Positions 11,965-23,564 of a stretch of DNA of 64,000 nucleotides are shown here, piece after piece. The DNA is from Candidatus Latescibacterota bacterium (GTDB lineage: Bacteria > Latescibacterota > UBA2968 > UBA8231): the NCBI GenBank assembly GCA_965217585.1, contig OZ244561.1, forward strand, positions 1,137,424 through 1,201,423. Direction: 5' to 3'. A program made the position numbers and the translations under genes. Each line of letters opens with the position of its first letter. Positions within the stretch are counted from its first letter, which is position 1. The notes under the pieces are model-generated. The model saw nothing but the letters and a program-made list of their open reading frames with translations. It was not told where the DNA came from and made no database searches.

Positions 11965-12231
11965 ATGACCAACAAACTCAAAAATGCTTTCGACAAAATC
12001 TCAACTCTGAGCGAAAAAGAGCAGGACGCTATCGCGGAAGCTCTCCTAGCAGTAGTAGATGATACTTGGGGGCCAGAGGACGATAAGGACGAAGCCGAAT
12101 GGGACGCCCTAGTGGGATCAAAAAAATCTCACGCTTGGTTGGACAAAATGGTAAAGCAAGTTCGGCAGGATATACAGGAAGGGAAGGTCTATGATTTTGA
12201 TCCCAGCGACTTGAACCCATCAAGTCCATGA
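11965..12231 (+). CDS. Putative type II antitoxin
   Basis: 88-aa acidic protein. Its stop overlaps the ATG of the downstream RelE/ParE-like toxin (ATGA). Low-G+C segment. Confidence 0.55.
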   Translation: MTNKLKNAFDKISTLSEKEQDAIAEALLAVVDDTWGPEDDKDEAEWDALVGSKKSHAWLDKMVKQVRQDIQEGKVYDFDPSDLNPSSP

Positions 12232-12491
12232 GATCAAAGACTCACCCCGGTTTCTGGGATGCTTATTATCAACTCCCCAAGACCATTCAAATCAAGGCGG
12301 CAGTTACCTATAAGAGATGGCGAAAAAATCCGTATCAACCGGGGCTTTCCTTTAAACCAGTAAAAGGAAAGCCCTCTGTCTATTCAGTGCGTATCGGGCG
12401 GCAGTGGAGAGCATTAGGACTCAAAGAGGGGGATACTATCACTTGGTTTTGGATCGGCCCACATTCTGAGTATGACCGACTCCTCTCTTAG
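12228..12491 (+). CDS. RelE/ParE-family type II toxin
   Basis: 87 aa. The segment ...SVYSVRIGRQWRALGLKEGDTITWFWIGPHSEYDRLL is the typical RelE/ParE C-terminal pattern. Confidence 0.75.
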   Translation: MRSKTHPGFWDAYYQLPKTIQIKAAVTYKRWRKNPYQPGLSFKPVKGKPSVYSVRIGRQWRALGLKEGDTITWFWIGPHSEYDRLLS

Positions 12492-13506: not shown

Positions 13507-14859
13507 TCAGGAAGCCATCCGCATCGGCATGAGCACGGCAGCGTGCTTGTCCTCCCCTGCCTCAAAGTGAAGAGGTGCCTCACTATGGTCAAGATATATC
13601 CGCATCTCCTCCCCCCCGTCTTTCAGCGCCTCCACAATAGTTGTGAGGGAGTCGTGATTGAGGCCGGCGCGGAATAATCCTCCATCCTCGATATTTGTCA
13701 CATCGGCAGGGCAGCTCACGGAATGCTCCCAGTCCGGGAGGTCGTCGCCGTGCAGGCCGTCCGCATTTTCTCCGTTCTGGCTGAAGAACCCCTGATCCCG
13801 CGTCGTTCGCAGCACCAGTTTCCCCTCCACACCCGATACCCGCATCTCTACGCTGGGCACGTACTCCCAGCCACTTTTCACCAGTTCGTGGCGGTCTCTG
13901 AGGAACGGCTCGATCTCCTCCACGCAGGCCATTAGGTGCTCGCTGCGCACGACCGCCAGGATCGGACCGTGGGAGCCGACGGCCTCTTGGTATTTGAGGT
14001 ACGGTCCGGGAGTCGATGGAAATGTCACCCTGCAGCCGTCCGGAGTCCGCAACGTGGCAGATTCCTCCTCGATAATCAGCGTTGCCGAGTCCGTCTCCGG
14101 GACCATTTCAGCTTGCAGCGAATCGAGGATCACCGGGGCCGGCAGCGACGCCAAGCCCCTGCTCGACCAGTTGAGCAGCCGCGAGCCATCGGTCGCGACA
14201 ATCCTACCACCGGCGTCGAGACAGACGCAGTGCATAATGGGCCGCTTGGGATCGTCGCTTATGAAGCGAGCTACGTGACGCAATCCGGCCAGATCGGCCG
14301 GTCCAAGCTCGAATGTCTGTGCAGTGCTGGATTCCGCCATCGCCATGATCTCCTTTTGTAGGCGTTTCCGGGCCTTTTGCAGACGGCTCTTTACCACTCC
14401 GGTTTGGAGGTGCAGCAAGGTTGCTGTCTGCTGATAGGAATAGCCCTTGAGGTAGTGGTGGACGATCACGTCTCGGTGGGGGGCACTCAACCGTCCGATC
14501 GCCTTCCGCACCAGCGCCCTGATCTCCTGCTTCTCCTGCTCGGGCGGTGCCGCGAGGTCGAGCTGATCCAGAAGATTGAGTTGGGTGAAACGGCGGCGCT
14601 GCCACATGCGCGCTTTGTTGTCCGCGATCGAGCACAGCCAGGCGCCGAATCGCTCGGGAGCGCGCAGCTCCGCTAGCTGCTGGTACGCGGCAATGAACGC
14701 CTCCTGTAGGACGTCCTCTGCCGCCTCTTGCGCGCCCAGCCTGCGGGTGAGCCGCATCAGCAACCACGGCGTGTGTTCCTCAACGAGCAGCCCAAACGCC
14801 GCAGAGTCGCCAGCGACCGCCCTCTGCACGCAGCTTTCTCCATTCCGTTCCATGATCAC
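13507..14859 (-). CDS. ECF sigma-70 family factor fused to a DnaN-like (beta sliding clamp domains II-III) C-terminal module
   Basis: aa 1-175 carry sigma regions 2 and 4 (DVLQEAFIAAY; YSYQQTATLLHLQTGVVKSRLQKARKRL). aa ~182-450 carry RIVATDGSRL, GPYLKYQEAV and the C-terminal AAVLMPMRM, matching DnaN hallmarks as I recall them. Confidence 0.85.
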   Translation of the reverse strand: MIMERNGESCVQRAVAGDSAAFGLLVEEHTPWLLMRLTRRLGAQEAAEDVLQEAFIAAYQQLAELRAPERFGAWLCSIADNKARMWQRRRFTQLNLLDQLDLAAPPEQEKQEIRALVRKAIGRLSAPHRDVIVHHYLKGYSYQQTATLLHLQTGVVKSRLQKARKRLQKEIMAMAESSTAQTFELGPADLAGLRHVARFISDDPKRPIMHCVCLDAGGRIVATDGSRLLNWSSRGLASLPAPVILDSLQAEMVPETDSATLIIEEESATLRTPDGCRVTFPSTPGPYLKYQEAVGSHGPILAVVRSEHLMACVEEIEPFLRDRHELVKSGWEYVPSVEMRVSGVEGKLVLRTTRDQGFFSQNGENADGLHGDDLPDWEHSVSCPADVTNIEDGGLFRAGLNHDSLTTIVEALKDGGEEMRIYLDHSEAPLHFEAGEDKHAAVLMPMRMAS

Positions 14860-14991
14860 CCTTATAGTTGCTTTCAGGCGACAAAGGTATCCGAAAAAAG
14901 GAGCCGTCGGGACAAATTACGCCTGCATCTTGACCCGATATTTGCGATATGTACATTAAATCAGCATCCACACCCTACTTAGGAAGCCTTC

Positions 14992-15384
14992 ATGTCGGAG
15001 ACAACCGGCCCCCAAGCTAACCCAGCCCCCGATAATACCCACTGGGGAGTCGCCTATCTGAGGGAAGACCTCCAAGATCTACGCCAGCAGATACGGGAAG
15101 ACAGCAAAGATCTGCGCCAGCAGATCGTCGAGACCAATCGGTCGCTCGGTCAGCAGATCGCCGAAACCAACCGGCAGATCGCCGAGACTAACCGGTCGCT
15201 CGGTCAGCAGATCGCCGAGACCAATAAGCGCATTGACGAGACCAGTCGGTCGCTCGGCCAGCGCATTGACGAGACCAATAAGCGCATTGACGAGACCAAT
15301 AAGCGCATTGAATCCCGTTTCGCTTGGCTCATTACAACCATGGTGGCGCTGACGGGCATCCTCATCGCCGTGATCAAGCTCTGA
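14992..15384 (+). CDS. Tail-anchored coiled-coil repeat protein
   Basis: In-frame 7/11-residue repeats (ETNRSLGQQIA, ETNRQIA, ETNKRID ...) followed by a single C-terminal TM helix (WLITTMVALTGILIAVI). Confidence 0.6.
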   Translation: MSETTGPQANPAPDNTHWGVAYLREDLQDLRQQIREDSKDLRQQIVETNRSLGQQIAETNRQIAETNRSLGQQIAETNKRIDETSRSLGQRIDETNKRIDETNKRIESRFAWLITTMVALTGILIAVIKL

Positions 15385-15441: not shown

Positions 15442-16689
15442 CTAGAAATTATACACCAAGCTCAAATCAATGAAGCTGTCGCGTCGAGTCTCGTAGTGGA
15501 TATCCGCTTTGTCGATACTGAGAAGATAGATCGACTCTAGATTCACAGACCACCGATCAGCAATACGCCGCTCCAACGCGACGGCCAGTGCGCGCGTAGC
15601 CCGGTCCACATCCCCCAGTATACTAGCGACAATTTCACTGCTCTGAACATCATTTAACGCAAGGCGCGCGGCGAAGAAGAGATCGTTTTCGGGCGTGTTG
15701 GGCGAGCGGCTTGGGGTCGCATTGCGGCCGCGCCCGTCGTAATTCCATTCGCCGAGCAGGCTGAGGTCGGCAGCCGAGCCAAAAACGGAATAGAACGTGT
15801 ATTCGCCGCCAAAAACGGCAGCAACGTAGTCTTCTTCCCGGCCGGACAGGTTGCGAGCACCAGCGCGCTGAATGGCCTCCAGCTTGAACAACCAAGAGCC
15901 GACCGTTAGCTGGGCGTCCAGTCCAAACTGGCGGATCTGCGCGTAGTACTGACCTAAGGTCGGCGCGCCGCTACGGTCCAAGAGTAGCTTCAGAGCAGGC
16001 TCCCGGCTGGTGCCGTTGAATGCACTCACACCCATATCGAGGAGTCCAAAACTGTGACTGTAGCGGGCGGCGAGATCCACGTGCCGCTCCTTGGCCGCGC
16101 TCTCGTACTCGACCTGCTCATCTTCTACCACGAGCGGAAGGCGCAAACGGCCCGCTCGGCCCGGAAAGGTGCGGGCGCGGTGATAGGGCAAAGCAAAAAA
16201 TTCCACCACACCCCAATCGCTAGACCAAGTCCCATGGACCATGGGTTGCCCCAGCTTGGCCTCTCCAGCCGGATGTTCGACCAAATCGACTTGGTTGACA
16301 ACATCGACCAAGTGCTGCGACTCGGTGACGCCCCAGAACACCTGATCGACGCCCACGCGCAGCTCCCATTCGCCGTCGCCGATTTCGCCGAATAGCAGCA
16401 GATAGGCTTCGCGCAGATCGGCATGGGTGCGGCGTGGGTCGGTGTTGTCGTAGCGAAAGAACGGAGCTAAAGTGAGGCTTCTACCCGCGGCGTCTTCAAG
16501 GTAGAGTTTAGGCACTGCAACAAAGCCGCTCGCATGGGAGTGCTGACCGGAATGAGCACCGGCTTCGGGGAACCATCGGCTTTCGGCATTCAAGCGCCCG
16601 GAAAACTCGTGGTCAATTTCGGTTCCGGCCTGTGCTTCGACGGCCAAGGCCAAAATCCAGACAGCGCCGAGGGCCGCACGGAGTAACAT
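15442..16689 (-). CDS. Putative outer-membrane beta-barrel protein
   Basis: The start at ATG 16689 gives signal peptide MLLRAALGAVWILALAVEAQA. The start overlaps the upstream stop (TGATG). Alternating beta-strand pattern and a C-terminal ...LSLVYNF. Confidence 0.7.
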   Translation of the reverse strand: MLLRAALGAVWILALAVEAQAGTEIDHEFSGRLNAESRWFPEAGAHSGQHSHASGFVAVPKLYLEDAAGRSLTLAPFFRYDNTDPRRTHADLREAYLLLFGEIGDGEWELRVGVDQVFWGVTESQHLVDVVNQVDLVEHPAGEAKLGQPMVHGTWSSDWGVVEFFALPYHRARTFPGRAGRLRLPLVVEDEQVEYESAAKERHVDLAARYSHSFGLLDMGVSAFNGTSREPALKLLLDRSGAPTLGQYYAQIRQFGLDAQLTVGSWLFKLEAIQRAGARNLSGREEDYVAAVFGGEYTFYSVFGSAADLSLLGEWNYDGRGRNATPSRSPNTPENDLFFAARLALNDVQSSEIVASILGDVDRATRALAVALERRIADRWSVNLESIYLLSIDKADIHYETRRDSFIDLSLVYNF

Positions 16690-17501
16690 CAACGCGCCCG
16701 TTTTAGTCCAGTTTTCGTAAAATCGCGGTCGTCGAGGTCTGTTTGGAATTGAAAATCCGTCCAAGTTAGAACGGTACTTTTTCCGGTCAAATGATTGACC
16801 ATCGTCATCTCGCCCGCGCGCCAGTAACGCTCTAGGTACTGTTCGTAGTTCCCTAGGGTGAGCGTCTTCAAATGGGCATCCTTGCGGTCGTAGTACTCCA
16901 CTTTCCAAACGCGGAGTTCGTCCTTGTCGCGCCAGACCACTTGGCGACTATAGCCCGATTTCTTATCGACGGAAACGCGTTCGGAGACCGTGCAGGTCAA
17001 ATCGCCACAAGGCTCGTCGCGCAGGTAGCGGTAGGTGAATTTCTCCACGGCCTGGGCGGTCAGGTCTTCATAGGCAAATTCGCTCCCCATGAAGGAGCCG
17101 GATCGGTTCGACGAACTAATGCGCTTGACTCGCTTTAGAGCAGGTAGGTAGAGCCATTGATCGTCCGCGCTTTCCCCATGCGAGTGAATGAGCAACGCCG
17201 TTCCCTGGACATCGCGCGGCTCATCAAACACAAACAGGCTCTTGTCACCATCTTCGGCGACTTCGAGCACCTTTACCCGGAGCTGGCGTCGGCTCTCTTG
17301 CCCGTGTTTGTTGCGCAGCACCATGGTTTGTTGCGCCGTGAAGTTGCCAAAACCTTGCTCGCGCGCGCGAGAATCATGAGCGATTTTCAGCCCAGTTTCC
17401 TCGGGGGTGGCATTTTCGGCATGGGTGGGTGCCGCGCCAAGACAGGTCAAAATGATCAGACAATGCGCGAAAAACGGCAGCATAGATCGCGTGAGAATCA
17501 T
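16689..17501 (-). CDS. Outer-membrane lipoprotein-sorting (LolA-like) family protein
   Basis: Has a signal peptide. Size (270 aa) and position between an RND/MMPL transporter and a barrel gene match the LolA-like family usually found there. 4-nt overlap with the transporter gene. Confidence 0.75.
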   Translation of the reverse strand: MILTRSMLPFFAHCLIILTCLGAAPTHAENATPEETGLKIAHDSRAREQGFGNFTAQQTMVLRNKHGQESRRQLRVKVLEVAEDGDKSLFVFDEPRDVQGTALLIHSHGESADDQWLYLPALKRVKRISSSNRSGSFMGSEFAYEDLTAQAVEKFTYRYLRDEPCGDLTCTVSERVSVDKKSGYSRQVVWRDKDELRVWKVEYYDRKDAHLKTLTLGNYEQYLERYWRAGEMTMVNHLTGKSTVLTWTDFQFQTDLDDRDFTKTGLKRAR

Positions 17502-19804
17502 GAATTTTTCCGGTCGATGGCAATTAGCAGCGTTGGAAGGAGTAAAAAGTCGGCGACAAGCGCGAAGAGGATCGTGATCGTGACCAAAAGACCGAGTGCC
17601 CAGCTCACCTCAAATCCCGAGGTGGCGAACACCAGAAAGCCGGCCGACAAGACCGCGGTCGTCGTCCATAACGCATGACCCACCGTGTGGAAGGCGGAGC
17701 GCACGGCCTCGGGAGCTGGCAGGCCCTCGCGGCGGGCCTTCAGATATTTGCTCAAAAAATGAATCGTATCGTCCACGACAATCCCGAAGACAACGGCGAT
17801 GACTACGGAAGAGGCAATGCCCACGTGGCCGACGAGATAGCCCCACAGGCCGAAGCTCATAATGGCAGGAATGAAATTGGGCAGCAGACTGAGAAGCCCG
17901 ATCCGCACGCTCTTGAAAATCCAAATAAGAACGAACGAAATGAGCGCCATGGCCAAGATCGTACCGCGCAACATGCTGTTGATATTTCGCAACGACAGGT
18001 GGGCAAAGACGACACTCAGGCCCGATCCTTCGTGCGCAAAAGTGGGTACATTGGCTCGGAGCCAGACCTGGGCGCGCTTATCGAGTTCACGTATATCTCG
18101 CGACCACGCATTCTTGGTCACGACGACTAGGCGCGTAGCGGATTTGGCGACATCAATGCGGTCGTTGAGATCGCTACCGAACGGAAGCGAAAGCTCGTAG
18201 AGCAACAGGTACTGCGCTGCGAGGTCCGGGTCTTCGGGCAGGCGATAGAAGGCTGGATCGTCGCCGTGCATGTTTTTGTTGAGACGTTTCATAATGTCCG
18301 AAAACGCCTGCACATGGGTCACTTCGGGCTGCTGTCGGTACCATTCGGCGAACGCATCGACCTTGCGCAAATAGTCGGGATCGGTGATGCCGCCTTCGCG
18401 CCCTGCACTCAGCGAATATTCCAGCTTGTCTAGGCCGGTCAGGTTATCAATGACATAATCCGTATCGCGCCGGAACTGGTACCGTTCATCAAAGTACTGC
18501 GCCATGTTGTCGCTTAGCTCAATGCGGGGAATGCCGAGTATCAGCACAACAACCACCAAGGTGACGGAGCCAAGCAGGAATGTACTCCGAGCGATGACAA
18601 AGTCGGCAAAGCGGTCGAAGAAGGCAGTCCCCTCAGACTGAACACGGCGCGTGCGCAATGGCAGAATCGAAAGCAATGCCGGTAGGAGCGTCATGGTATA
18701 TATGAGCGCACATAATACCCCAAACGCCACGTAGTTACCCAAGACGTGAAAAGGTGGCGAATCCGAGGCATTCAGGCTGAGGAATCCAATCGCCGTGGTG
18801 ACCGAGGTGATAAATACCGGATAGGCATTGATGCGGATCGATTCGACAATCGCCGCATTTCGGTCCAGACCACGCCTCATACCTAGTAAAACACTCGTGA
18901 CGATGTGGATTGAATCCGCGATGGCTATCACCATGACAATAATCGGCACGCCGGCGTTGGTCGGGCTGAACACCACGCCGTTCCAGCCGGCGAATCCCAT
19001 AGTGGTATTGATGACAAACACGAGTACGGCGACGATGGCCACAGTGCTGAGAACCGAGCGCAGGAGAATAATTGTGACACTTACAATGATGAGAAATACA
19101 ATAGGTGTCAGGGTCTCCATGTCGTTCTGGGTGGCATCGGAGAAAGTCCGGTTCATGACGACATCGCCGGTCATGTAATAATTGATTCCCGGGTGGTCCG
19201 CGCGGGCTTGCTCCAGAAGCGAATTGAGATAATCGGTAATTTCGACCACGGCCTGATCTGGATTTTCAGGCAGGATGAAATTGATCGCCACTCCGGTCGT
19301 GCGTCCGTCATGGGCGACCAGACGCCCGGCAATTGCAGCCGCATCCAACGCGATCCCCTCAATTCGGGCCACGTCGGCATCGCTCAGTGCATGCGCGTCC
19401 TCGACGAGCGGGGCGACAATGAGTTCATCCTCAAGTGCTTCGCTATGGGTATAGTTAGTAAGGGAGTTGACCCGACTGGAATAAGGCACGCGCCACGCAG
19501 CTTCGGTCAGCTCTTCAACCGCGCCAAGCGCCTCGCGGGTGAACACCGAACCCTCGCGCGGCGCAATGGCAATCAGGGCCGTATTGGAGACAGAGTACGT
19601 GTTCTCTAAGGCGTTGAAAGCGGCGAGTTGCGGATTGTCCTCGCTAAACAGAACGCGGTAATCGTTGGTAACGGTGATGAAGCGAACACCAGCCGTCGTA
19701 GCCAGCATGACCAGCGTTGCGAGCGCAACAACCAGCCACCGACGGCGCAAAATGGCGGCAATGTAGGTGTCCAAGCGCAAAAGAGTCGTCCCCTCGACCG
19801 TCAC
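17498..19804 (-). CDS. RND superfamily / MMPL (HpnN-like) transporter
   Basis: 768 aa with two 6-TM bundles, each preceded by a large loop. Typical RND/SSD organisation. Confidence 0.9.
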   Translation of the reverse strand: MTVEGTTLLRLDTYIAAILRRRWLVVALATLVMLATTAGVRFITVTNDYRVLFSEDNPQLAAFNALENTYSVSNTALIAIAPREGSVFTREALGAVEELTEAAWRVPYSSRVNSLTNYTHSEALEDELIVAPLVEDAHALSDADVARIEGIALDAAAIAGRLVAHDGRTTGVAINFILPENPDQAVVEITDYLNSLLEQARADHPGINYYMTGDVVMNRTFSDATQNDMETLTPIVFLIIVSVTIILLRSVLSTVAIVAVLVFVINTTMGFAGWNGVVFSPTNAGVPIIVMVIAIADSIHIVTSVLLGMRRGLDRNAAIVESIRINAYPVFITSVTTAIGFLSLNASDSPPFHVLGNYVAFGVLCALIYTMTLLPALLSILPLRTRRVQSEGTAFFDRFADFVIARSTFLLGSVTLVVVVLILGIPRIELSDNMAQYFDERYQFRRDTDYVIDNLTGLDKLEYSLSAGREGGITDPDYLRKVDAFAEWYRQQPEVTHVQAFSDIMKRLNKNMHGDDPAFYRLPEDPDLAAQYLLLYELSLPFGSDLNDRIDVAKSATRLVVVTKNAWSRDIRELDKRAQVWLRANVPTFAHEGSGLSVVFAHLSLRNINSMLRGTILAMALISFVLIWIFKSVRIGLLSLLPNFIPAIMSFGLWGYLVGHVGIASSVVIAVVFGIVVDDTIHFLSKYLKARREGLPAPEAVRSAFHTVGHALWTTTAVLSAGFLVFATSGFEVSWALGLLVTITILFALVADFLLLPTLLIAIDRKNS

Positions 19805-22192: not shown

Positions 22193-23470
22193 TCACACGA
22201 ACTTCGGCCGGCCACAGCCGTCGTTGACCACGTAGCTGCGCGCTGGAATCGCCGCTTGCTCGGGAATGACTAAGTCGAGCGGCGAATCATTCTCAATGAC
22301 GGTACCGGCCCCCACGCGCACCCCGGCCCCCAACTTAATCGCTCCAGGCCGCACAGGACCCGCTATGATCGTGCCGATAGATACCGACACGCCGATCCGG
22401 CAATCCGGGCCGATCGCGACGATGCCGTTGATTTCGGAGTTGGCCCCAATCGCCGTGCGGTCGCCCACCTGCACCGGGCCGAAAAGCCCGGCATCCGTGC
22501 CGATAAACACGTAGTCGCCAATGGTGGGATGGCGCTGCTGCACCTTGCCGCTGAGGCCGCCCAAAGTACACGGGTACATGTGGCAGCCGCTGCCGATGAT
22601 ACCCGTCTGTCCAGTGGTTATGCCGCGATGGGGGTGGTCGAGGAAATTGGCATCGCCAATCTGCGTTTCGGGATGGATATCCGCCTGGTAGTAGCGCCCC
22701 CCCAACTCGGCAATGGCTCGCGGCAGCAAGGGCACCGGCCGCCGCTTCAGCCCGGATTCGCCTGCCACCGAGCCAGAGCGCGTTAGGGCGTGGGCAATGT
22801 CGTGGTAAAACAACACCCGCCAGCCCGGATAGGTGCTCATCACGAGCTGCATCTGGTAGTCGAAAATGAAGTCGCACTCCAGTGCGGCGAGGAAGCGGCG
22901 ATAGTGGTCGAAGTCGCGGCGGTGAATGGTCTCGTCCAAGGCGGCCCGGAAGTCGATCTTGAGCAGCCGCTCCTGGGTCAACCCGCAATTGTCGAGCAAA
23001 TAGGCGTCCCAAACGGCCGGATCCCTAAGCGCGGCAAAGCGGTTCCAGCGGGCGCGGACCTTGTAGGCGGGCAATTCCCACAGCAAACAGAAGGTATTCA
23101 TCAGAGCCTTCTCTTCAGCACCTTCGCTCTCGCCGGCCGCCGAAAGCGACTGCGCGATCATCGCGTAGAGCTGGTCGGCAATCTCGCCGATGGCCTCGTC
23201 GAGCGACGGGTTTTGGTGCCCCGGCCCCAAGGCATTGTGCGAACCAGGGGCGACACATTCGAGCAAGTTGCCCAAAACCGTCTCCAGCAGGTCGCGGTCG
23301 ACAAACCCGCGCCCGGAGCGCTGCGAGAGAATGTCCCGGTCCACCGCGTCGATGCGGAGCGCGGCGACCTCCTCCGAGGTGTAGATCGGCATCAGCCGCT
23401 CTAGCAGCCGCTCTAGCAACGCCCACTTGCGGCGTTGATACGCAGTGTCGAAAAGCGTGGAATTGTTCAT
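22193..23470 (-). CDS. Serine-O-acetyltransferase-like hexapeptide-repeat acyltransferase with a long N-terminal extension
   Basis: The C-terminal LbH region is DIHPETQIGDANFLDHPHRGITTGQTGIIGSGCHMYPCTLGG...RHPTIGDYVFIGTDAGLFGPVQVGDRTAIGANS. ATG 23470 is preceded by GGGGAG. Confidence 0.75.
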   Translation of the reverse strand: MNNSTLFDTAYQRRKWALLERLLERLMPIYTSEEVAALRIDAVDRDILSQRSGRGFVDRDLLETVLGNLLECVAPGSHNALGPGHQNPSLDEAIGEIADQLYAMIAQSLSAAGESEGAEEKALMNTFCLLWELPAYKVRARWNRFAALRDPAVWDAYLLDNCGLTQERLLKIDFRAALDETIHRRDFDHYRRFLAALECDFIFDYQMQLVMSTYPGWRVLFYHDIAHALTRSGSVAGESGLKRRPVPLLPRAIAELGGRYYQADIHPETQIGDANFLDHPHRGITTGQTGIIGSGCHMYPCTLGGLSGKVQQRHPTIGDYVFIGTDAGLFGPVQVGDRTAIGANSEINGIVAIGPDCRIGVSVSIGTIIAGPVRPGAIKLGAGVRVGAGTVIENDSPLDLVIPEQAAIPARSYVVNDGCGRPKFV

Positions 23471-23564
23471 CGTTTGCTCCCCATTCTTCCTCCTCATAAC
23501 TTTTAACAAAAATTACGGAACGCACGCCGGGTTGCAACCCGGCTCACCCCCGCAGGGAGAAATC

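What the first reader, a model, noticed from the sequence alone, without database searches (positions are those of the whole stretch)
13507..14859. ECF sigma factor fused in-frame to a two-domain beta-sliding-clamp (DnaN-like) module
Residues 1-175 are a standard ECF sigma (regions 2 and 4). With no stop or frameshift, residues ~182-450 (nt 13510-14316) then read like DnaN domains II-III:
- ...PIMHCVCLDAGGRIVATDGSRL... versus E. coli DnaN ...LRTVATDGHRLA...
- ...GPYLKYQEAV... versus GRFPDYRRVLP
- the extreme C-terminus ...HAAVLMPMRM versus ...AAYVVMPMRL

No anti-sigma gene is co-transcribed, which is typical of ECFs regulated by their own C-terminal extension. I know of no described sigma-clamp fusion. 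It recalls phage T4 late transcription, where the gp45 clamp activates sigma gp55. A two-domain clamp subunit would need to trimerise (PCNA/gp45-like) to close a ring; that part is speculation.
Basis: partly seen in the sequence, partly recalled or inferred. Interest (0 to 1): 0.8.

Follow-up and report, generated by a model that had tools for sequence, protein, structure and literature searches.

The report
Sigma factor fused to half a sliding clamp
One gene encodes an alternative (ECF) sigma factor joined to two of the three domains of the bacterial DNA sliding clamp, a conserved and apparently undescribed design in which the clamp remnant most likely serves as the sigma factor's built-in regulatory or partner-binding module rather than as a ring around DNA.

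Summary
Window 13507-14859 (minus strand) is one uninterrupted ORF of 450 aa (448 aa from the likelier ATG start).

- **Sigma part:** residues 1-175 are a standard ECF sigma factor (Pfam σ2 and σ4; TIGR02937 above its cut-off).
- **Clamp part:** residues ~181-448 are homologous to DnaN domains II-III. Family profile vs PDB gives E = 2.6e-20, colinear with DnaN 132-374. An AlphaFold model (pLDDT 87) hits only β clamps in Foldseek (E ~1e-14).
- **Not an artefact:** the fusion is intact in 23 of 24 independent genomes, many of them closed Latescibacterota chromosomes. About 45 fusion representatives appear at 50% identity in a search of 1.84 billion proteins. Both halves are under purifying selection.
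- **No partners found:** there is no stand-alone version, no phage or defence link, no conserved neighbour and no anti-sigma gene.
- **Probably not a DNA ring:** domain I is missing, and the helices that would line the channel are acidic (−9 against +2 in E. coli).
- **Cleft retained:** the clamp's peptide-binding cleft is its best-conserved part. A family-specific motif (RRR-x-x-Q-L/P-x-Φ; here QLNLL) sits in the σ2-σ4 linker.

Best reading: a new type of regulatory extension on an ECF sigma factor. The ligand and the mechanism are inferred, not shown.

The parts
13507..14859 (-). Whole ORF of the sigma-clamp fusion (450 aa from GTG 14859, with the stop at 13507-13509). The likely true start is the ATG at 14853, giving 448 aa.
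   Evidence: ORF listing. Orthologues are 447-448 aa. The L010 1-nt deletion keeps only the ATG in frame. Omega is 0.06-0.25 among close orthologues.
14590..14787 (-). Sigma region 2 (residues 25-90).
   Evidence: Pfam PF04542, E = 1.1e-12. PDB matches to ECF sigma factors, E down to 2.9e-15.
14569..14604 (-). Family-specific motif at the end of sigma2 and the start of the sigma2-sigma4 linker: W86-x-R88-R-R-x-x-Q93-L-N-L96-L (QLNLL, residues 93-97). It resembles a clamp-binding motif.
   Evidence: Among 45 diverse fusions, Q93 is kept in 43, R88 in 44 and a hydrophobic residue at 96 in 44. The motif is absent from the aligned PDB ECF sigma factors. The CBM resemblance comes from memory and is a lead only.
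14335..14514 (-). Sigma region 4 (residues 116-175). Its last helix runs into the module through a spacer of about 4 residues (ESST).
   Evidence: Pfam PF08281, E = 1.7e-11, and PF04545, E = 5.9e-7. AF2 predicts helix 153-176 followed by strand 181-185.
13990..14319 (-). DnaN domain II-like half of the module (residues ~181-290). It includes VATDGSRLL (221-229) and GPYLKY (285-290).
   Evidence: Profile alignment to DnaN 127-~245. phrog_947, E = 1.4e-12. AF2 secondary structure.
13510..13989 (-). DnaN domain III-like half of the module (residues ~291-450). It includes N401 (equivalent to E. coli N320) and the C-terminal LMPMRM (443-448).
   Evidence: Profile alignment to DnaN ~245-366/374. N401 is kept in 91% of family members, M444 in 89% and P445 in 96%.
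14860..14920 (-). Conserved upstream block (…TTTGTCCCGACGGCTCCTTTTTTCGGATACCTTTGTCGCC-N-AAGCAACTATAAGG). It is presumably the promoter, leader and ribosome-binding region.
   Evidence: Alignment of 13 loci; GGATACCTTTG.CGCC…GCAACTA.AAGGGTG is nearly invariant, even in L016 (69% aa identity). The block does not recur elsewhere in the window. Function was not tested.

Best explanation
This is a genuine single-polypeptide ECF sigma factor. Its C-terminal extension of about 270 residues descends from domains II and III of the replicative beta sliding clamp (DnaN).

Proposed mechanism:
- The sigma part (sigma2, linker, sigma4) binds RNA polymerase core and recognises promoters, as any ECF sigma factor does. 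This follows from family membership.
- The clamp-derived module has lost domain I and has acidic channel helices. It therefore does not act as a DNA-encircling processivity ring.
- The module keeps the clamp's hydrophobic peptide-binding cleft between domains II and III.
- I propose that it acts as the sigma factor's built-in regulatory and partner-binding domain. In that role it replaces a separate anti-sigma factor, as the SnoaL-like extension does in ECF41 and the TPR extension does in ECF42.
- The module is strongly acidic and is tethered by about 4 residues to the last helix of the basic sigma4 domain. In this model it holds the sigma factor in one state.
- Binding of a short linear motif in the cleft would switch that state. 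The motif could be the conserved R-R-R-x-x-Q-L/P-x-hydrophobic segment of the protein's own sigma2-sigma4 linker, or a clamp-binding-motif-like peptide from another protein.

What is shown: the architecture, the homology, the conservation, the selection, the lack of partner genes, the acidic channel helices and the retention of the cleft.

What is inferred: the regulatory role, the identity of the ligand, and whether the module activates or inhibits.
For: Architecture and homology.

The fusion is real, old and selected.
- It is intact in 23 of 24 genomes.
- About 45 fusion representatives appear at 50% identity.
- It is intact in 11 of 11 diverse loci.
- Omega is 0.06-0.25 among close orthologues.

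The protein is self-contained.
- No neighbour is conserved and no anti-sigma candidate is present.
- Every apparent stand-alone module that I tested was a truncated fusion.

The module is probably not a DNA ring.
- Domain I is absent.
- The four helices equivalent to the channel-lining helices sum to -9 (family mean -3.6, maximum +2), against +2 in E. coli.
- The module has a net charge of -22, while the sigma part has +7.
- The second helix of the domain II-like half is reduced to one turn in the AF2 model.

The cleft is retained.
- Of 28 cleft or motif columns, 15 are identical to E. coli, against 33 of the other 204 columns (Fisher p = 3.6e-5).
- The family consensus matches E. coli at 20 of those 28 columns (p = 1.6e-8).
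- The most conserved module positions across 45 diverse members are D224, G218, N401 and P445, plus the ATDG.RL and MP motifs.

Linker motif: it is conserved in 43-44 of 45 members.

Precedent: the ECF41 extension contacts a conserved linker motif, and the ECF42 extension acts through protein interaction (PMC8999054).
Against: - AF2 of the full-length protein does not predict a fixed docking. pTM is 0.59, the linker has pLDDT 46-59 and the sigma4-module junction has pLDDT 58. A linker peptide bound in the cleft would usually be modelled with more confidence.
- Only Q and the fourth (hydrophobic) position of the CBM-like motif are conserved across the family. The fifth position is often acidic.
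- The cleft motifs are also the structural core of every DnaN, so profile alignments anchor on them. Their retention is therefore not proof of peptide binding.
- No ligand, regulon or signal is known.
- The list of E. coli cleft residues comes from my own knowledge of the DnaN literature, not from a tool.
Confidence: 0.55

Rival explanations
1. Clamp on DNA, or replisome coupling. The module still works in the clamp system. It could trimerise into a six-domain, PCNA-like ring. It could pair with host DnaN or the clamp loader. Alternatively, the linker's QLNLL could bind a DNA-loaded host beta clamp. Any of these would tether this sigma-RNAP to replicating or nicked DNA. That would be a cellular counterpart of T4 gp45-gp55-gp33 or of Mu MuC with the beta clamp.
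For: - Two-domain clamp protomers do form rings (PCNA and gp45; established knowledge), and the fold is intact.
- The module sits directly after sigma4, so in a holoenzyme it would lie next to upstream promoter DNA. T4 gp45 sits at the upstream end of its activation complex, near the coactivator gp33 (PMC7892883).
- Transcription factors that carry CBMs and use the host clamp are now known (PMC12867686).
- A CBM-like QLNLL lies in the linker.
- The clamp cleft is retained.
Against: - Domain I is absent, and with it the canonical dimer interface.
- The channel helices are acidic (-9; family mean -3.6) and one is degenerate.
- There is no link to dnaA, dnaN, recF, repair genes or phage genes in any locus.
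- No relatives appear in viral contigs.
- The fifth position of the CBM-like motif is not conserved.
Confidence: 0.2
2. Decoy or titration module. The half-clamp binds the clamp-binding motifs of replication or repair proteins (Pol III alpha, DinB, Hda, MutS/L). Sigma activity would then report on the pool of unengaged clamp clients, or the protein would titrate those clients. The sigma domain would be the output and free CBM-bearing proteins the input.
For: - The cleft residues are the best-conserved part of the module.
- No other sensory domain and no partner gene is present.
- ECF42 sets a precedent for regulation by protein interaction.
Against: - Nothing links the gene to DNA metabolism.
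- Several cleft positions differ from DnaN in this protein (H175 to S, P242 to L, V247 to A, Y323 to S), so the specificity may have moved away from canonical CBMs.
- There is no direct evidence for this idea. It overlaps with the best explanation and differs only in the identity of the ligand.
Confidence: 0.15
3. Artefact or dead gene. The join would be a misassembly or a frameshift read-through, or the C-terminal part would be a decaying remnant with no function.
For: - Some genomes carry disrupted copies (L022; P0049-P0055) and an N-terminally truncated derivative (P0227). The gene is therefore dispensable in some lineages.
Against: - The same junction occurs in 23 independent assemblies, including closed chromosomes, and in distant relatives down to 21-28% module identity.
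- Module omega is 0.15-0.25 among close orthologues and 0.29-0.37 for the most distant pairs.
- The AF2 fold is confident.
- Base composition is even across the join.
Confidence: 0.01

Closest known systems
ECF sigma factors with fused C-terminal regulatory extensions: ECF41/56/205/294/295 (SnoaL-like), ECF42 (TPR), ECF57 (WD40-like), ECF238/287/288 (Cys-rich) (PMC7826278, PMC8999054)
   Same: - A minimal sigma2-sigma4 core is followed by a conserved extension of more than 50 aa.
- There is no cognate anti-sigma gene nearby.
- The extension type is constant within the group.
- A conserved motif lies in the sigma2-sigma4 linker. In ECF41 the equivalent motif is contacted by the extension.
   Different: - The extension here is a two-domain DnaN-derived module of about 270 aa.
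- This fold is not among the extension types listed in either review.
- It derives from a core replication protein, not from a small-molecule-binding or repeat domain.
- I could not assign the sigma core to a numbered ECF group with the tools available.
DnaN, the beta sliding clamp of DNA polymerase III (for example E. coli 1MMI or 2POL)
   Same: - The module is homologous to, and colinear with, domains II and III up to the very C-terminus (…LMPMRM vs …VMPMRL).
- The fold is the same (TM about 0.68).
- The cleft-lining motifs are retained: ATDG.RL, N320 and MPMR.
   Different: - There is no domain I, so the head-to-tail dimer ring cannot form.
- The channel helices are acidic rather than mildly basic.
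- Family-specific insertions are present in domain III (RH…GW.Y.P, PDWEH).
- The module is fused to a sigma factor.
- The gene is not in a dnaA-dnaN-recF context.
- The protein scores below the Pfam DnaN gathering thresholds.
Phage T4 late transcription (gp45 clamp, gp55 sigma and gp33 co-activator) and phage Mu MuC with the host beta clamp (PMC7892883, PMC2988020, PMC12867686)
   Same: - A clamp-fold protein and the promoter-specificity machinery are physically linked.
- The clamp's hydrophobic patch and a short clamp-binding motif form the interaction logic.
   Different: - In the phage systems the transcription factor carries the motif, and a separate, complete, DNA-loaded ring carries the cleft.
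- Here the sigma factor itself carries the cleft-bearing two-thirds of a clamp.
- No ring is demonstrated here.
- The gene is cellular, not viral.
Two-domain clamp-fold proteins that do not form closed homotrimeric rings, such as herpesvirus UL42 (monomer) and UL44 (C-shaped dimer); cited from established knowledge
   Same: - They have two clamp-fold domains per chain.
- They function without a closed ring.
- They serve as protein-binding platforms.
   Different: - These proteins bind DNA through a basic face and serve DNA polymerases.
- The module here is strongly acidic and is attached to a sigma factor.

Membership tests
ECF (group 4) sigma-70 family | Sigma region 2 domain | tested here: met
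   PF04542, E = 1.1e-12, residues 25-90
ECF (group 4) sigma-70 family | Sigma region 4 domain | tested here: met
   PF08281, E = 1.7e-11, and PF04545, E = 5.9e-7, residues 116-169
ECF (group 4) sigma-70 family | No regions 1.1 or 3; family-level HMM above its curated cut-off | tested here: met
   Only r2 and r4 are found within 175 aa. TIGR02937 scores 85.1 bits against a cut-off of 42.9. No equivalog or subfamily model reaches its cut-off.
ECF (group 4) sigma-70 family | Binds RNAP core and directs promoter-specific initiation | not testable with these tools
   This needs in vitro transcription. A conserved upstream block exists, but its function is unknown.
DnaN beta sliding clamp | Three homologous domains (PF00712 N-terminal, PF02767 central, PF02768 C-terminal) | tested here: not met
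   Only domains II and III are represented (alignment to DnaN 127-366). The sigma factor occupies the position of domain I. There is no Pfam DnaN hit for this protein. PF02768 appears weakly in 2 of 18 relatives.
DnaN beta sliding clamp | Homology and fold of domains II-III | tested here: met
   Profile vs PDB E = 2.6e-20. Foldseek E = 8e-15 and TM 0.64-0.71, with all top 50 hits being beta clamps.
DnaN beta sliding clamp | Closed head-to-tail dimer ring | not testable with these tools
   No multimer prediction is available. The canonical interface needs domain I, which is absent.
DnaN beta sliding clamp | Channel-lining helices compatible with DNA (neutral to basic) | tested here: not met
   The four equivalent helices sum to -9 (family mean -3.6), against +2 in E. 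coli. The second helix of the domain II-like half is one turn only.
DnaN beta sliding clamp | Hydrophobic peptide-binding cleft between domains II and III | tested here: inconclusive
   Residues are retained: 15 of 28 columns are identical and the consensus matches at 20 of 28, far above background. Binding itself was not tested, and several positions are substituted (H175S, P242L, V247A, Y323S).
[quoted passage not shown] | Conserved extension of more than 50 aa, with no cognate anti-sigma gene in the neighbourhood | tested here: met
   An extension of about 270 aa is conserved in all family members. No neighbour is conserved in 24 close and 11 diverse loci.
[quoted passage not shown] | The extension contacts the sigma core or linker and modulates activity | tested here: inconclusive
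   A conserved linker motif exists, but AF2 gives no confident docking (pTM 0.59). There is no functional assay.
[quoted passage not shown] | The extension belongs to a described type (SnoaL-like, TPR, Cys-rich, WD40-like, ZAS/TM, FecR-like, DUF1835) | tested here: not met
   No such Pfam domain is present. The fold is a DnaN fold. A clamp extension is not listed in PMC7826278 or PMC8999054.
T4-type clamp-activated transcription | A separate ring-forming clamp is loaded on DNA, and the sigma or co-activator carries a terminal clamp-binding motif; phage-encoded | tested here: not met
   The clamp part is covalently fused and incomplete. There are no viral relatives. The only CBM-like motif is internal, in the linker, and is only partly conserved.

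The most novel reading that the evidence does not exclude
The half-clamp is still a working part of the clamp interaction network. Its cleft, and/or the linker's QLNLL motif, would connect this sigma-RNAP holoenzyme to the replisome, to a DNA-loaded beta clamp or to clamp clients. The half-clamp might also assemble into a ring of its own. A free-living bacterium would then couple transcription initiation from a dedicated promoter set directly to replication or DNA-repair status. That would be a cellular, single-polypeptide counterpart of T4 and Mu late transcription.
Probability: 0.2. Interest if true: 0.9.

Novelty: new variant of a known kind. Interest (0 to 1): 0.7.

Why it matters
ECF sigma factors with fused extensions act as one-component signal transducers, and each new extension type has so far revealed a new way of controlling transcription initiation.

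Here the extension is recruited from the replicative sliding clamp, one of the most conserved proteins of DNA replication. It keeps the cleft through which the clamp binds all of its clients.

- **If the cleft is used in cis,** this is a new autoregulatory principle: a clamp cleft paired with a linker peptide.
- **If the cleft is used in trans,** it would be the first cellular case of a sigma factor wired into the clamp interaction network. Until now that link has been seen only in phages T4 and Mu.

In either case it shows the clamp fold being reused outside DNA-encircling roles. It also defines a compact family of at least about 45 clusters at 50% identity, seen so far only in uncultured lineages. 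The named sources are Latescibacterota, MAGs labelled Gemmatimonadota (several apparently from sponges), and Candidatus Handelsmanbacteria. Public sources currently annotate these proteins only as "ECF subfamily sigma factor".

The protein is small and soluble-looking and needs no partner gene, so the competing models can be tested directly in vitro.

Tried and rejected
- **Single-sequence searches.** Pfam, NCBIfam and PDB searches of residues 176-450 found no DnaN hit. This reflects divergence rather than absence of homology, because profiles and PHROGs recover DnaN.
- **Stand-alone two-domain module.** About 20 short hits looked like a separate family. Every one I checked was a truncated fusion.
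  - P0201 and P0058 have ORFs open to the contig edge that encode the end of sigma4.
  - P0227 keeps the last sigma4 helix behind stop codons.
  - I therefore reject the idea of a separate partner protein that became fused.
- **Phage or defence origin.** There are no relatives in viral contigs. Viral clamp structures are no closer than cellular ones. PADLOC finds nothing.
- **Conserved neighbour or regulon.**
  - Synteny holds only among close relatives.
  - Distant loci share nothing with each other except stray toxin-antitoxin genes and, in two loci, FGE-sulfatase genes.
  - The conserved upstream block does not recur in the window.
- **Intramolecular docking by AF2.** This was inconclusive (pTM 0.59).
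- **QTFEL at the junction as a clamp-binding motif.** Rejected, because it is the first beta-strand of the domain II-like half.
- **Co-variation of linker P94 with T443 in the C-terminal motif.** Nine of the ten P94 sequences have T443. The pattern follows one clade, so it cannot be separated from shared ancestry.
- **Broad metagenome scans.** The narrower alignment returned only 6 loci.
- **Supplements of the ECF classification paper.** They are not held in the library, so I could not check whether a small unnamed ECF group already contains these proteins.
Full report
**1. The observation**

- Window 13507-14859 holds a single 450-aa ORF on the minus strand, with no internal stop.
- Base composition is even across the proposed join.
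- The true start is probably the ATG two codons downstream, at 14853. Orthologues are 447-448 aa. In locus L010 a 1-nt deletion throws the GTG out of frame while keeping ATG-GAA-CGG.

**2. The sigma half**

- Residues 25-90 match Pfam Sigma70_r2 (E = 1.1e-12), and residues 116-167 match Sigma70_r4_2 (E = 1.7e-11).
- The ECF family model TIGR02937 scores 85.1 bits against a cut-off of 42.9. No equivalog or subfamily model reaches its cut-off.
- The only PDB sequence matches are ECF sigma factors.
- This half is an ordinary ECF core of sigma2, linker and sigma4.

**3. The clamp half**

As a single sequence, residues 176-450 hit no DnaN model in Pfam, NCBIfam or PDB. Profile and structure methods recover the relationship:

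- A profile of 18 relatives (A1) hits 39 PDB sequences, all of them beta sliding clamps (best E = 6.5e-10).
- A more diverse 21-sequence profile (A5) raises this to E = 2.6e-20 as one colinear stretch, positions 5-273 against DnaN 132-374. All 55 hits are DnaN.
- hhalign against E. coli DnaN aligns 7-272 with 127-366, that is domains II and III through the last residue. I wrote the E. coli sequence from memory and verified it as identical to 1MMI.
- PHROGs gives an independent single-sequence hit to phrog_947, "DNA polymerase processivity factor" (E = 1.4e-12).
- An AlphaFold2 model of the module is confident (pLDDT 87.3, pTM 0.86).
- The top 50 Foldseek matches in PDB are all beta clamps, with E from 8e-15 and TM 0.64-0.71.
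- In the large protein collection, the nearest non-family hits are canonical three-domain DnaN proteins.

**4. The fusion is real and belongs to a family**

- A genome scan found 24 loci. Most are in Latescibacterota, including many closed 4.5-6.6 Mb chromosomes. Several are MAGs labelled Gemmatimonadota, some with sponge-style bin names. The fusion is intact in 23 of the 24.
- Homology searches return about 50 clusters at 90% identity. They run from 92% down to 28% identity, and almost all carry sigma r2 and r4 domains. One is from Candidatus Handelsmanbacteria.
- An exhaustive HMM search of 1.84 billion representatives gives 103 hits at E ≤ 1e-10. The top of about 100 form a family of their own, and canonical DnaN (about 365 aa) begins only near E = 1e-12.
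- By a local HMM search, at least 45 of these representatives have the sigma N-terminus. Thirty-four of them are full-length, at 430-494 aa.
- dN/dS against eleven orthologues is 0.06-0.24 for the sigma part and 0.15-0.25 for the module among close relatives. Both halves are maintained by selection.
- Public sources name these proteins only "RNA polymerase sigma-70 factor (ECF subfamily)".

**5. No separate version and no partner genes**

- About 20 hits of 260-290 aa looked like stand-alone modules. The ones I examined are truncated fusions.
  - P0201 and P0058 are ORFs open to the contig edge that encode "…QKARKRLQQE..AM".
  - P0227 retains only the last sigma4 helix behind stop codons.
- Most of the others begin at the conserved junction methionine.
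- One protein, P0076, has a zinc-ribbon-like N-terminus instead of a sigma domain. I did not follow it up.
- In this window the gene is flanked by a convergent enoyl-CoA hydratase gene and by a divergent 130-aa repeat/TM ORF that is not conserved. Beyond that lies a DUF1302/LolA-like/MMPL cluster.
- Distant loci have quite different neighbours:
  - rpe, a PASTA-domain gene and rsmB;
  - FGE-sulfatase and an ABC transporter;
  - rhaA and rhaT;
  - DUF6602 and hsdM.
- An all-against-all comparison of 11 diverse loci found no shared neighbour family. The only recurrences were a PIN toxin in two lineages and FGE-sulfatase in two loci.
- No relative exists in viral contigs. Viral clamp structures are no closer than cellular ones. 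PADLOC finds nothing.

**6. What the module can and cannot be**

Evidence against a DNA-encircling clamp:

- Domain I is absent, and with it the canonical head-to-tail interface.
- The four helices equivalent to the channel-lining helices carry a summed charge of −9. The family mean is −3.6 and the maximum is +2, against +2 for E. coli.
- The module's net charge is −22, against −8 for E. coli domains II-III. The sigma part is +7.
- The second helix of the domain II-like half is reduced to one turn.

Evidence for a retained peptide-binding function:

- Across 45 diverse members, the best-conserved module positions are those of the DnaN cleft and its motifs: V/A/T/D/G.RL at 221-228, N401, and M444-P445.
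- Of 28 cleft or motif columns, 15 are identical between E. coli and this protein, against 33 of the other 204 columns (Fisher p = 3.6e-5).
- The family consensus matches E. coli at 20 of those 28 columns (p = 1.6e-8).
- Two caveats apply. The cleft residue list is from my own knowledge of the DnaN literature. These motifs are also the structural core on which alignments anchor.

**7. The linker**

- The end of sigma2 and the start of the linker carry a family-specific motif, W86-x-R88-R-R-x-x-Q93-[L/P/M]-x-Φ96. Q93 is kept in 43 of 45 members, and position 96 is hydrophobic in 44 of 45.
- In this protein the motif reads QLNLL-DQLDL. From memory, it resembles clamp-binding motifs (QL[SD]LF; UmuC QLNLF).
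- The aligned PDB ECF sigma factors lack it.
- An intramolecular interaction between the linker and the cleft would parallel ECF41, where the extension contacts a conserved linker motif (PMC8999054).
- AlphaFold2 of the full-length protein does not predict it. pTM is 0.59, the linker has pLDDT 46-59 and the junction has pLDDT 58.
- The fifth position of the motif is often acidic.
- Linker P94 co-occurs with T443 in the C-terminal motif, but this pattern follows one clade.
- I treat the linker-cleft idea as a lead and not as a finding.

**8. Interpretation**

- Best supported (confidence 0.55): this is an ECF sigma factor of the "fused regulatory extension" kind. The extension is a clamp-derived, acidic, cleft-bearing module that takes the place of an anti-sigma factor. 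It would switch sigma activity by binding a short peptide in cis or in trans.
- Main rival (0.2): the module still takes part in clamp biology, through its own ring, through host DnaN, or through the linker motif binding a loaded clamp. That would couple transcription to replication, as in T4 (PMC7892883, PMC2988020) and Mu (PMC12867686).
- Variant (0.15): the module senses or titrates clamp clients.
- Artefact or dead gene: effectively excluded (0.01).

**9. Novelty**

- Fused extensions on ECF sigma factors are well known. The main text of the 2021 reclassification (PMC7826278) and the 2022 review (PMC8999054) describe SnoaL-like, TPR, Cys-rich, WD40-like, ZAS/TM, FecR-like, DUF1835 and multi-TM types.
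- Neither source mentions a clamp-derived extension. Full-text searches combining sigma or ECF terms with clamp or DnaN terms found nothing.
- The supplements of the classification paper were not available, so an unnamed small group containing these proteins cannot be ruled out.
- I rate this as a new variant of a known kind, with interest 0.7.

Noticed in passing
window 14853-14859 and 14860-14920: The annotated GTG start is probably wrong. The ATG at 14853, with AAGGG 5-6 nt upstream, is the start that stays in frame in all loci; L010 has a 1-nt deletion between the GTG and the ATG. A block of about 60-75 nt upstream (GGATACCTTTGTCGCC…GCAACTATAAGG) is nearly invariant, even at 69% protein identity.
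   Followed up: partly
L022:6001-6780; proteins P0049-P0055: In several genomes the fusion gene is cut about 65-75 residues into the module, after …ATDGSRLLN or …LASLPAP. Unrelated sequence and a stop codon follow. Two of the unrelated tails share '…SRFAA'. The gene therefore seems to have been disrupted repeatedly near the same point.
   Followed up: partly
L029:4938-5879 (P0227; also L030-L032): This is an N-terminally truncated derivative. It keeps only the last sigma4 helix plus the complete module, is preceded by stop codons, and is present on 7 contigs from one study. It may be a naturally sigma-less half-clamp protein or a pseudogene.
   Followed up: partly
protein P0076 (324 aa): A clamp-like module is preceded by a zinc-ribbon-like N-terminus (CPNC…CKFC) instead of a sigma domain. 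This may be a second architecture for the same module.
   Followed up: no
window 14992-15384 (+): A divergent 130-aa ORF is made of tandem 'ETN[RK]xxxQ[QR]I'-type repeats and ends in a hydrophobic C-terminal helix. It gives only weak apolipoprotein/coiled-coil-type Pfam hits. No homologue was found in the 24 related loci.
   Followed up: partly
window 15442-19804 (-): A DUF1302 / LolA-like (DUF1329-related) / MMPL-RND gene cluster lies upstream of the sigma gene in only about 8 of the 24 related loci. In the other loci the hexapeptide-transferase gene (window 22193-23509) lies closer, so this is a variable segment.
   Followed up: partly
window 11965-12491 (+); L038:42-476, L039:2821-3288: A ParE-like toxin with an upstream small ORF, probably a toxin-antitoxin pair, sits near the gene in this window and in only some relatives. 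PIN-domain toxin genes sit near distant family members. These are probably mobile toxin-antitoxin modules with no functional link to the sigma gene.
   Followed up: partly
L036:5144-7269 and flanks: In one distant member (P0228, 33% identity) the start of the fusion gene overlaps the stop of a DUF6602 gene. The locus also holds a type I methyltransferase (HsdM), a reverse-transcriptase-like gene and transposases, so it may be a mobile or defence island. This is a single case.
   Followed up: no
family alignment, residues 94 and 443: Members with proline after the invariant linker glutamine (Q-P-x-L) almost all have T-M-P-M-Q at the C-terminus instead of L-M-P-M-R. This could reflect co-evolution of the linker with the cleft, or simply one clade.
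   Followed up: partly
PHROGs hit phrog_1740: The best phage sigma-factor profile that matches the sigma part is 567 positions long, and the sigma part covers only positions 45-219 of it. Some phage sigma factors may therefore also carry long extensions.
   Followed up: no
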